Of a DNA stretch of 501 nt, positions 45-501 are shown piece after piece. The position numbers and the translations under genes are program-made. Positions within the stretch are counted from its first letter, which is position 1. Every line of letters starts with the position of its first letter. The notes under the pieces are model-generated. The model was not told the DNA's origin and ran no database searches. It worked only from the letters and a program-made list of their open reading frames with translations. Source of the stretch: Escherichia coli (GTDB lineage Bacteria > Pseudomonadota > Gammaproteobacteria > Enterobacterales > Enterobacteriaceae); assembly GCF_003334335.1 (NCBI RefSeq), contig NZ_QOWQ01000180.1; one strand, written 5' to 3'.

Positions 45-239
45 ATGACATTTGTTCATCAGGTGATGCTGTACTTCTGTACGGCGGTCTGTGTGCTGTA
101 TCTTCTTTCGGGTGGGTACAGGGCAGTGCGCGATTTCTGGCGCAGGCAGATTGATAAAAGGGCCGCAGAGAAAATCAGCGCCAGTCAGTCAGCCGGAGCA
201 AAAACAGAAGCCCCACTCATTCCGGAACAACCTTCTTAA
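45..239 (+). CDS. Hypothetical small membrane protein (64 aa) with one predicted N-terminal transmembrane helix, a basic juxtamembrane segment and a Pro/Glu-rich C-terminal tail
   Basis: Seen in sequence: ATG at 45 is the first start after an in-frame TAA at 36..38, and the ORF ends in a double stop TAATAA at 237..242. A weak purine-rich SD-like stretch GGTAAGAAA (34..42) lies just upstream. The translation MTFVHQVMLYFCTAVCVLYLLSGGY has a roughly 18-residue hydrophobic core (residues 7-24) followed by RAVRDFWRRQIDKR, which by the positive-inside rule suggests N-out/C-in topology. An in-frame ATG at 66 is an alternative start. No homologue recognised from memory. Confidence 0.55.
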   Translation: MTFVHQVMLYFCTAVCVLYLLSGGYRAVRDFWRRQIDKRAAEKISASQSAGAKTEAPLIPEQPS

Positions 240-252
240 TAACCCCTTTCAA

Positions 253-259
253 CGAGAAA
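253..259 (+). promoter_or_regulatory. Putative weak ribosome-binding site for ORF2
   Basis: CGAGAAA, with its GAGA core about 8 nt upstream of ATG 265, sits in the 25-bp intergenic spacer after the ORF1 TAATAA stop. Confidence 0.3.
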
Positions 260-264
260 ATCCT

Positions 265-501
265 ATGTCAGAAATAAAATCGCTGGTCACTGCTGAGGCA
301 GTGAAGGAAGTCCTGCGCTCTGAAGAAGTCCGGAGCGCACTGAAACAGCAACTTCGGCAGAACCTTGAGGCGCGTCTTGATGCAGAAGTGGATTCAATTC
401 TGGATGAATTGCTTGGTGCACAGCCGGAACCATCCCCGGAACTGCTTCCGGAACCACAGGCGGAAGATGTCACCACGGAAAATGGTGATATTCAGCCGGA
501 G
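265..501 (+). CDS. Hypothetical acidic protein, 3'-partial (79 codons or more, continues past the window end): N-terminal amphipathic helix or coiled-coil-like region followed by a Pro-Glu-rich low-complexity linker
   Basis: Seen in sequence: ATG at 265 with a weak SD-like GAGA (254..257) about 8 nt upstream. The frame stays open to the window edge. Translation: MSEIKSLVTAEAVKEVLRSEEVRSALKQQLRQNLEARLDAEVDSILDELLGAQPEPSPELLPEPQAEDVTTENGDIQPE. Leu/Val/Ile recur at i, i+3/4 spacing (L26, L30, L34, L38, V42, I45/L46, L49/L50), typical of an amphipathic helix. Codons are E. coli-typical (CTG, GAA, CCG, GCG). It lies 25 bp downstream of ORF1 on the same strand, consistent with an operon. It is missing from the supplied track only because it has no in-window stop. 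Confidence 0.6.
   Translation, partial: MSEIKSLVTAEAVKEVLRSEEVRSALKQQLRQNLEARLDAEVDSILDELLGAQPEPSPELLPEPQAEDVTTENGDIQPE
424..459 (+). repeat. Imperfect 12-bp tandem repeat (3 units) inside ORF2, encoding the Pro-Glu linker
   Basis: Seen in sequence: CCGGAAC recurs at 424, 436 and 448 with exact 12-nt periodicity. The units are ccggaaccatcc / ccggaactgctt / ccggaaccacag, encoding PEPS / PELL / PEPQ. Confidence 0.55.

What the first reader, a model, noticed from the sequence alone, without database searches (positions are those of the whole stretch)
45..501. Two-gene module: small single-pass membrane protein plus acidic helix and Pro-Glu linker protein
ORF1 and ORF2 are co-directional, 25 bp apart, with no terminator between them, so they are probably co-transcribed. 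A 64-aa membrane anchor followed by a helical protein with a flexible acidic linker is an architecture common among accessory subunits of envelope-spanning machines (conjugative T4SS/pilus assembly operons, phage morphogenesis or lysis cassettes, divisome-like adaptors). I could not match either protein to a known family from memory, so the pair may be uncharacterised. The gene sizes (about 64 aa then 80 aa or more) would fit small tra/trb-type genes of F-like plasmids, but this rests on size alone and is unverified.
Basis: inference. Interest (0 to 1): 0.5.

Follow-up and report, generated by a model that had tools for sequence, protein, structure and literature searches.

The report
Two small Stx-prophage late genes
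The window holds two real but functionally uncharacterised small genes (Pfam DUF1378 and DUF826) that sit just upstream of the cell-lysis genes in Shiga-toxin-type prophages of E. coli; they are already catalogued, are not plasmid transfer genes, and gene neighbourhoods in distant phages suggest they help control lysis.

Summary
Both ORFs exist as described: ORF1 at 45-239 (64 aa) and ORF2 from 265 (96 aa in full), 25 bp apart with no terminator between them. Both are under purifying selection (dN/dS 0.20 and 0.27).

They are not unmatched. ORF1 is Pfam DUF1378 (E 5e-35) and ORF2 is DUF826 (E 2e-28). They are orf25 and orf26 of phage 933W.

The window is 100% identical to a lambdoid prophage late region found in about 1,000 of 5,426 complete E. 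coli genomes and about 300 Stx phages. The order is always Q ... (stx) ... NanS-p esterase, DUF1378, DUF826, holin S, endolysin, Rz. The conjugation/T4SS reading is refuted.

One new point came out of this work. Distant DUF1378 relatives (hhalign 99%) lie inside or at the end of lysis cassettes in 9 of 10 informative contexts outside E. coli. One of these also carries a DUF826 homologue and no NanS-p.

My best reading is a lysis-associated accessory pair: an N-out/C-in membrane protein plus an acidic cytoplasmic partner (about 0.45). The main rival is a NanS-p accessory role. No experimental data were found. The genes are already known as families, their function is open, and interest is modest.

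The parts
34..39 (+). Shine-Dalgarno-like GGTAAG, 5 nt before the ORF1 start
   Evidence: Read from the sequence. The position is kept in related loci, and divergent copies have GGGAGG or GAGG at the same place.
45..239 (+). ORF1, 64 aa, a DUF1378 family protein (PF07125; phrog_494); equals orf25 of phage 933W
   Evidence: It is intact in 80 of 80 loci. dN/dS is 0.20.
51..116 (+). ORF1 residues 3-24: the single hydrophobic transmembrane segment, with the family motif LLYF..V..LYL..GG(Y/W)
   Evidence: Hydropathy. The invariant columns are L9 Y10 F11 V15 L18 Y19 L20 G23 G24 Y25. The motif is kept in distant relatives.
117..179 (+). ORF1 residues 25-45: basic juxtamembrane helix (net +4), predicted to be cytoplasmic; the most constrained part of the protein
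   Evidence: Charge count. dN/dS is 0.10 for codons 29-48. AF2 predicts a continuous helix over residues 3-47.
180..239 (+). ORF1 residues 46-64 plus the stop codon: a variable tail, with the stop after residue 59, 60 or 64 in different copies
   Evidence: dN/dS 0.42.
240..264 (+). 25-nt intergenic spacer with an SD-like GAGAAA at 254-259; no terminator
   Evidence: The spacer sequence is conserved across variants.
265..501 (+). ORF2, a DUF826 protein (PF05696; phrog_311). The first 79 of 96 codons are in the window; in the identical locus the stop lies 54 nt beyond the window end. Equals orf26 of phage 933W.
   Evidence: It is intact in 77 loci. dN/dS is 0.27.
265..420 (+). ORF2 residues 1-52: the conserved helical domain (helices 10-17 and 20-50)
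   Evidence: AF2 pLDDT is 80-94. dN/dS is 0.19. Invariant columns are listed.
421..501 (+). ORF2 residues 53-79: the start of the acidic Pro/Glu-rich disordered C-terminal tail. The tail varies in length and sequence and ends in a conserved ...PE..ML/MM beyond the window.
   Evidence: dN/dS is 0.35.

Best explanation
**What is shown.** The window is part of the late operon of a lambdoid, Stx-type prophage of E. coli; the exact-match copy is stx-negative. It carries the 3' flank of the NanS-p esterase gene, then DUF1378 (ORF1), then DUF826 (ORF2), and lies about 130 nt upstream of the S21-type holin gene. Both ORFs are real, selected protein genes. No promoter-like site was found within about 300 nt upstream of ORF1 or anywhere in the module, so they are most likely expressed from the Q-antiterminated pR' late transcript, together with NanS-p and the lysis genes.

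**What is inferred.** ORF1 is a bitopic inner-membrane protein. It has a very short periplasmic N-terminus, a strongly conserved transmembrane helix and a basic cytoplasmic helix. ORF2 is a soluble, very acidic cytoplasmic protein with a two-helix N-domain and a disordered Pro/Glu tail.

**Proposed mechanism (inference).** The pair is an accessory of the lysis cassette.
- ORF1 would use its conserved transmembrane helix to contact a membrane component of lysis, either the holin or the Rz i-spanin. This would tune when or how efficiently the envelope is breached.
- ORF2 would act as ORF1's optional cytoplasmic partner, probably through the basic helix.
- The pair is not the primary holin, endolysin or spanin. 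Those are all present separately.

The confidence of 0.45 applies to the lysis-modulating role. The identity of the genes and their prophage context are near certain.
For: **Identity and context**
- 100% matches in E. coli chromosomes, annotated DUF1378 and DUF826.
- L001 gene order: Q, MTase, tRNAs, TerB, NanS-p, DUF1378, DUF826, class II holin, lysozyme, Rz, terminase.
- The same order NanS-p, DUF1378, DUF826, S, R, Rz holds in every one of 80 viral loci that has flanks, and in the 57-63% identical variants.
- About 300 phage records match, mostly Stx-converting.
- Selection.

**Link to lysis.** Distant DUF1378 relatives were found by a full HMM scan and confirmed as homologues (hhalign 99.3%, E 4e-20; phrog_494). 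They lie inside or at the end of lysis cassettes in 9 of 10 informative contexts.
- After Rz or Rz1, often with an ATGA start/stop overlap: L083 Stenotrophomonas phage, L093, L096, L097, L108/L109 and L095.
- In L104 (phage EKP1), one gene after Rz.
- Right after the endolysin: L106 and L107.
- These cassettes use different holin and endolysin families.

**The pair outside E. coli.** In L093 the relative is followed by a bona fide DUF826 homologue (Pfam E 3e-15; hhalign 97%), and no NanS-p is present. So the pair as such is linked to a lysis cassette.

**Dependence of DUF826 on DUF1378.** DUF826 was never seen without DUF1378 in any locus where the upstream flank is present, while DUF1378 occurs alone.
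Against: - No experiment exists on either protein. No homology was found to any characterised holin, antiholin, spanin or releasin.
- In E. coli the pair is always next to NanS-p. The NanS-p + DUF1378 (with or without DUF826) module also occurs where no holin is adjacent: a Mu-like phage (L084) and P2-like prophages (L098-100).
- One relative (P0233) sits after a tail-fibre assembly gene, not a lysis gene.
- The position after Rz is also a known landing site for unrelated morons such as lambda bor (background knowledge).
- A conserved terminator-like hairpin separates ORF2 from S.
- An AF2 run on ORF1-linker-ORF2 gave low confidence (pLDDT 54, pTM 0.19), so a direct ORF1-ORF2 contact is not supported by this proxy.
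- Canonical S21/R21/Rz cassettes are known to lyse cells without such genes (background knowledge), so any role is modulatory.
Confidence: 0.45

Rival explanations
1. NanS-p accessory module. ORF1, with or without ORF2, serves the upstream sialate O-acetylesterase NanS-p, for example by membrane targeting, release or regulation. The genes would travel with NanS-p as one cargo unit.
For: - NanS-p is the immediate upstream neighbour in every E. coli locus that has flanks.
- The same adjacency holds in three unrelated phage backbones: lambdoid, P2-like (L098-100) and Mu-like (L084).
- A terminator-like hairpin closes the unit after ORF2.
- A lambdoid and a P2-like copy share the same 60 nt upstream of ORF1, which indicates transfer of the junction between backbones.
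Against: - Distant DUF1378 relatives, and the L093 DUF1378+DUF826 pair, occur with no NanS-p at all, next to spanin or endolysin genes.
- NanS-p identity varies from 46 to 100% independently of the pair, which shows recombination between them.
- No evidence of physical or functional coupling was found.
Confidence: 0.2
2. Lysogen-benefit moron. ORF1 would be a small membrane protein expressed from the prophage that gives superinfection exclusion or another host fitness trait, with ORF2 as a cofactor.
For: - Small single-pass membrane proteins are typical exclusion factors (background knowledge).
- The region between Q and S in Stx phages is a known moron site carrying stx and nanS-p.
- A terminator-like hairpin follows ORF2.
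Against: - No promoter-like site was found in L001 11700-13000.
- In distant relatives the start codon overlaps the stop of Rz or LysC (ATGA). That indicates late-operon, translationally coupled expression.
- No match to PADLOC defence models.
Confidence: 0.12
3. Virion morphogenesis factor. Some phage records label the DUF826 gene 'head completion protein'.
For: The automatic annotation 'head completion protein' lies over the DUF826 match in PhiR5_1; the same label also appears under the two-gene DNA match in phiSTEC1589 and phiXuzhou21.
Against: - PHROG 311 itself has no assigned function.
- The gene lies far from the head genes, on the other side of the lysis cassette and terminase.
- No structural or sequence match to any head protein was found.
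- A 96-aa protein that is half disordered is an unlikely connector.
Confidence: 0.04
4. One reading: small tra/trb-like accessory subunits of a conjugative T4SS or pilus on an F-like plasmid.
For: Gene sizes only. There are 11 plasmid records with matches.
Against: - 2328 of 2339 places are chromosomal.
- 10 of the 11 plasmid records are non-mobilizable, and the features there are the same prophage genes.
- All flanks are phage late genes.
- No T4SS family was hit.
Confidence: 0.01

Closest known systems
Pfam DUF1378 (PF07125) / PHROG 494; orf25 of phage 933W (Y10775)
   Same: Full-length HMM match (E 5e-35). Same size, same gene order, and 83% identity to the 933W copy.
   Different: Nothing differs; ORF1 is a member. 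The family has no assigned function.
Pfam DUF826 (PF05696) / PHROG 311; orf26 of phage 933W
   Same: HMM match E 2e-28 over the helical domain. Same position before S, and about 70% identity to the 933W copy.
   Different: The tail is 6 residues longer and differs in sequence from the 933W type. The family has no assigned function.
Antiholin and lysis-timing accessories: T4 RI (membrane-tethered) with RIII (small cytoplasmic helical protein), P1 LydB, lambda S107, S21-71
   Same: A small membrane protein plus a small soluble cytoplasmic helical protein, encoded with lysis genes and dispensable for the core holin-endolysin-spanin pathway. This is a resemblance in architecture and context, recalled from background knowledge.
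   Different: No sequence or fold similarity was detected. RI faces the periplasm, whereas ORF1 is predicted to face the cytoplasm. No lysis phenotype has been tested.
Phage Mu gp25 'releasin' and other small lysis-cassette membrane proteins (PMC9239132)
   Same: A small membrane protein in a cassette with a SAR endolysin and spanins, acting as a regulator rather than as a hole-former.
   Different: No homology was found, and the function of ORF1 is untested. ORF1 relatives also occur with non-SAR endolysin types.
Lambda bor-type morons located after Rz
   Same: A small envelope-associated gene at the distal edge of the lysis cassette.
   Different: Bor is a lipoprotein with its own promoter. 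ORF1 has no lipobox (sequence), no promoter was found, and relatives overlap the Rz stop codon.

Membership tests
Pfam DUF1378 (PF07125) | Significant full-length match to the family HMM | tested here: met
   E 5.1e-35, query 1-59 against model 1-59 of 59; phrog_494 E 4.8e-37.
Pfam DUF826 (PF05696) | Significant match to the family HMM | tested here: met
   E 2.4e-28, query 1-57 against model 1-59 of 75; phrog_311 E 5e-37.
Stx-type lambdoid late-operon module (NanS-p, DUF1378, DUF826, S, R, Rz) | Conserved gene order downstream of Q and upstream of the S21-type holin | tested here: met
   L001 annotation; all of the 80 IMG/VR loci that have flanks; divergent variants.
Holins (functional class) | Sequence membership in a known holin family | tested here: not met
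   No holin Pfam, PHROG or NCBIfam hit for ORF1. A canonical class II holin is encoded separately, about 390 nt after the end of ORF1.
Holins (functional class) | Small size, at least one TMD and a charged C-terminus | tested here: met
   64 aa, one hydrophobic segment, +4 juxtamembrane region. These features are generic and not sufficient for membership.
Holins (functional class) | Lethal membrane permeabilisation that releases or activates the endolysin | not testable with these tools
   Needs expression and lysis assays.
Antiholins (T4 RI/RIII, P1 LydB) | Homology to a characterised antiholin | tested here: not met
   No hits in PHROGs, Pfam, NCBIfam or PDB.
Antiholins (T4 RI/RIII, P1 LydB) | Binds the holin and delays triggering | not testable with these tools
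   Needs genetics or an interaction assay.
o-spanin (Rz1-like) | Signal peptide with a lipobox Cys | tested here: not met
   ORF1 has no basic n-region and no L-[ASTVI]-[GAS]-C lipobox (sequence). Rz1 is found embedded in Rz in L083.
F-like tra/trb or T4SS accessory proteins | Location in a transfer operon, or homology to Tra/Trb families | tested here: not met
   Chromosomal prophage context; no such family hit.
Moron (independent transcription unit) | Own promoter upstream and own terminator downstream | tested here: inconclusive
   No promoter-like site was found. A terminator-like hairpin follows ORF2. These are consensus scans only.
Anti-phage defence systems (PADLOC) | Match to a defence protein model | tested here: not met
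   0 families at E <= 1 for both ORFs.

The most novel reading that the evidence does not exclude
DUF1378 (with DUF826 where present) would define a previously unrecognised class of lysis regulator. It would be a cytoplasm-facing single-pass membrane protein whose conserved TMD docks onto the holin or the i-spanin, paired with an acidic, largely disordered cytoplasmic partner. In Stx phages it would set the timing of lysis, and therefore of Shiga toxin and NanS-p release.
Probability: 0.25. Interest if true: 0.6.

Novelty: already known. Interest (0 to 1): 0.3.

Why it matters
These two genes lie between the toxin/NanS-p genes and the lysis genes in nearly all Stx-converting phages, and occur in up to 7 copies per STEC genome. 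Toxin release depends on phage lysis. A conserved modulator of lysis timing would therefore bear on how much toxin and phage an induced cell yields.

The genes have been sequenced since 933W but have never been assigned a function. The cross-phage neighbourhood evidence gathered here turns "DUF" into a concrete hypothesis that a deletion experiment can test. As a sequence feature, though, the module is ordinary and already annotated.

Tried and rejected
1. **Natural fusion proteins as evidence of interaction.** phrog_8301, P0152, P0153 and P0188 carry both domains. They are single-contig frameshifts inside ORF1 into the ORF2 frame, so they are artefacts or pseudogenes.

2. **A longer ORF2 or a programmed frameshift.** ORF2's frame is open for 66 codons upstream, and many records annotate 132-134 aa from the TTG at window 151. 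The open stretch shrinks to 27-46 codons in L024, L084 and the L085 type. Synonymous divergence in ORF1 is not depressed there. Rejected.

3. **Split-gene idea.** I asked whether the helical C-terminal extension of long DUF1378 relatives is homologous to DUF826. hhalign probability is 1.1%. Rejected.

4. **Mini-ORF at 4..48** (MKTVLIVNHNGKKL, stop overlapping the ORF1 ATG). It is not conserved in divergent copies. Chance.

5. **Antisense ORFs** (249..476 minus strand and others). The codon-position pattern fits the + strand frames. Spurious.

6. **Small acidic ORFs after DUF1378 relatives in L107 and L108/L109 as cryptic DUF826 homologues.** hhalign probability is below 1%. Not demonstrated.

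7. **Structure.**
   - The AF2 model of ORF2 gives two helices plus disorder.
   - Foldseek against the PDB found nothing.
   - Sequence searches of the PDB found nothing.
   - The AF2 run on ORF1-linker-ORF2 had low confidence and was uninformative.

8. **Rfam.** No RNA family lies in the window region.

9. **Literature.** Searches by DUF names, locus tags, Phi24B gene names, NanS-p and lysis-cassette terms found no functional study.

10. **Terminator-like hairpin after ORF2.** It is conserved, but only with one-sided pair changes and no compensatory double changes.

Full report
**1. The observation**

The window contains ORF1 at 45-239 (ATG, 64 aa) and ORF2 starting with ATG at 265 and running off the end (79 codons). 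In the 100%-identical chromosomal locus L001, ORF2 is 96 aa (L001 12265-12555). The spacer is 25 nt. No terminator-like or promoter-like site lies between the ORFs. The only + strand terminator-like call inside the window is a weak stem within ORF1. SD-like motifs precede both starts, and divergent copies have stronger ones.

Both ORFs are intact, with ATG starts, in every related viral locus examined (80 for ORF1, 77 for ORF2). Substitutions are concentrated at third codon positions. Pairwise Nei-Gojobori dN/dS is 0.20 for ORF1 and 0.27 for ORF2. The basic helix of ORF1 (0.10) and the helical domain of ORF2 (0.19) are the most constrained parts. So both are real protein-coding genes.

ORF1 has one hydrophobic segment (residues about 3-24). 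Its N-terminus is uncharged and residues 25-45 carry a net +4, which by the positive-inside rule predicts N-out/C-in.

ORF2 has pI 4.05. AF2 predicts helices at 10-17 and 20-50 (pLDDT 80-94) and a disordered Pro/Glu-rich tail. The tail varies in length and sequence but always ends in ML or MM after a PE or PD motif. It is a tail, not a linker.

**2. What it is**

ORF1 is Pfam DUF1378 (E 5e-35) and PHROG 494. ORF2 is Pfam DUF826 (E 2e-28) and PHROG 311. NCBIfam has no model for either.

The window matches 1006 of 5426 complete E. coli genomes, with up to 7 copies per genome and 2328 of 2339 places on chromosomes. It also matches 306 phage records, mostly Stx1- or Stx2-converting phages. In phage 933W the two genes are orf25 and orf26, immediately before S.

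The exact-match locus reads: Q antiterminator, DNA methyltransferase, three tRNAs, TerB/DUF3927 (where stx sits in toxigenic phages), NanS-p esterase, DUF1378, DUF826, class II (S21-type) holin, lysozyme, Rz, terminase. All 80 IMG/VR loci with flanks show NanS-p, DUF1378, DUF826, S, R, Rz. So do the 57-63% identical variants.

The only paper in the library that names the two DUFs merely notes them between nanS-p and S (PMC10462455).

**3. Reach of the families**

Word-indexed searches of 5.8 billion proteins returned almost only Escherichia and Shigella entries for both proteins.

A full HMM scan of 1.84 billion representatives with a DUF1378 profile found only 37 clusters. Some are distant members that keep the motif M-T-x5-LLYF-x3-V-x2-LYL-x2-GG(Y/W)-x2-IR and often carry a longer Ala/Glu/Lys-rich extension. 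They are true homologues (hhalign 99.3%, E 4e-20; phrog_494).

Their contexts are as follows:

| Locus | Context of the DUF1378 relative |
|---|---|
| L083, Stenotrophomonas phage BUCT709 | S21-like pinholin (unannotated), SAR lysozyme, Rz with embedded Rz1, then the relative, with an ATGA overlap |
| L093 | Q, lambda-type holin, lysozyme, a holin-like DUF7940 protein, Rz-like gene, the relative, then a 68-aa ORF |
| L096 | muramidase, DUF7940, Rz, the relative |
| L097 | lysozyme, DUF2570, LysC, the relative |
| L095 | Rz-like fragment, the relative |
| L104, phage EKP1 | holin, lysozyme, Rz, one ORF, the relative |
| L108/L109 | Q, holin, lysozyme, Rz, the relative |
| L106 and L107 | endolysin, the relative (followed by a DUF2570 gene in L106) |

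That is 9 of 10 informative distant contexts, spanning several holin and endolysin families. The exception, P0233, follows a tail-fibre assembly gene.

The 68-aa ORF in L093 is a genuine DUF826 (Pfam E 3e-15; hhalign 97%). So the pair itself exists at the end of a lysis cassette with no NanS-p. The L093 lysis genes resemble those of Klebsiella and Serratia phages.

**4. The competing association**

In E. coli, ORF1 is always directly downstream of NanS-p. The NanS-p + DUF1378 unit also occurs in P2-like prophages, after LysC and before gpR, without DUF826. NanS-p + DUF1378 + DUF826 occurs at the right end of a Mu-like phage, far from any holin. A lambdoid copy and a P2-like copy share the same 60 nt upstream of ORF1. 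NanS-p identity varies independently of the pair.

A conserved terminator-like hairpin with a T-run follows ORF2, and a second hairpin sits at the S ribosome-binding site. Transcripts that lack Q modification would therefore probably stop after ORF2.

**5. Mechanism**

Shown: identity, context, selection, predicted topology and disorder, and the genetic linkage to lysis cassettes across distant phages.

Inferred: late, Q-dependent co-transcription. I also infer that ORF1 acts in the inner membrane through its unusually conserved TMD on a lysis membrane protein (holin or i-spanin), with ORF2 as an optional cytoplasmic partner. ORF2 was never seen without ORF1 in any locus with its upstream flank present, whereas ORF1 is often alone.

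I put about 0.45 on a lysis-modulating role and about 0.2 on a NanS-p accessory role. Moron, exclusion and morphogenesis roles get less. The conjugation reading is refuted.

The AF2 linker-fusion proxy gave no support for a direct complex. Foldseek and PDB sequence searches found nothing. PADLOC found nothing.

**6. Comparison with known systems**

Membership in DUF1378 and DUF826 is met. Membership in any holin, antiholin, spanin, T4SS or defence family was tested and not met.

The pair works most like an antiholin-type accessory, such as T4 RI/RIII or P1 LydB. That is only a resemblance of architecture and context, and the topologies differ.

**7. Novelty and verdict**

The two genes are already catalogued and are ubiquitous in STEC prophages, so the finding as a sequence feature is already known. 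Their function is open. The lysis-cassette linkage of distant relatives, seen here, gives a testable lead. Interest is 0.3.

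Noticed in passing
L001 12565-12593 (64-92 nt beyond the window end): A terminator-like hairpin (12 pairs) with a T-run lies between the DUF826 stop and the S holin start. It is kept in 15 distinct spacer variants, with only one-sided pair changes. It would stop transcripts that lack Q modification before they reach the lysis genes.
   Followed up: partly
L001 about 12602-12622: A second conserved hairpin (CTTCCG...CGGGAG) lies immediately upstream of the dual-start S gene (MYQM...). 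It resembles the start-choice (sdi-type) structure known for lambda S; that comparison is from memory.
   Followed up: partly
L001 9495-9700: Strong Rfam match to the sRNA STnc100 (143 bits, gathering threshold 47), between DUF3927 and the NanS-p gene.
   Followed up: no
L083 3721-3936 (Stenotrophomonas phage vB_SmeS_BUCT709, OM816835): An S21-like pinholin ORF (71 aa) directly before the SAR lysozyme is not annotated. The record instead annotates an opposite-strand CDS at 3651-3887, which is probably spurious. Rz1 is embedded in Rz at 4697-4891.
   Followed up: partly
window 151-264: Many database DUF826 entries are 132-134 aa because a TTG at window 151, inside ORF1, is taken as the start. 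The upstream open frame is not conserved in divergent copies, so these are start-site artefacts.
   Followed up: yes
phrog_8301; proteins P0152, P0153, P0188: Apparent DUF1378-DUF826 fusion proteins are frameshifts within ORF1, each on a single contig. PHROG 8301 seems to be built on such products.
   Followed up: yes
L084 1594-4246 (Mu-like phage inserted in Stx1 phage LC727895); L098-L100 2809-5174 (P2-like prophages): The NanS-p-like esterase + DUF1378 (+ DUF826 in the Mu-like phage) module occurs in non-lambdoid phage backbones, so it moves between phage types.
   Followed up: partly
L108 4179-4346; L107 567-794: DUF1378 relatives are followed by small acidic ORFs (55 and 75 aa) with low-complexity tails. 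They resemble DUF826 in character but show no detectable homology (hhalign below 1%).
   Followed up: yes
L001 8837-9429: The exact-match prophage is stx-negative. TerB-family and DUF3927 genes occupy the position downstream of the tRNA cluster where stx lies in toxigenic relatives.
   Followed up: no
L001 11907-11950 (before the window): A hairpin (CCGCCAGC...GCTGGCGG) preceded by A8 lies just after the NanS-p stop. The scan scores it as terminator-like only on the minus strand.
   Followed up: no
window 4-48: A 14-codon mini-ORF has its TGA overlapping the ORF1 ATG (ATGA). It is lost or interrupted in divergent copies, so it is probably chance.
   Followed up: yes
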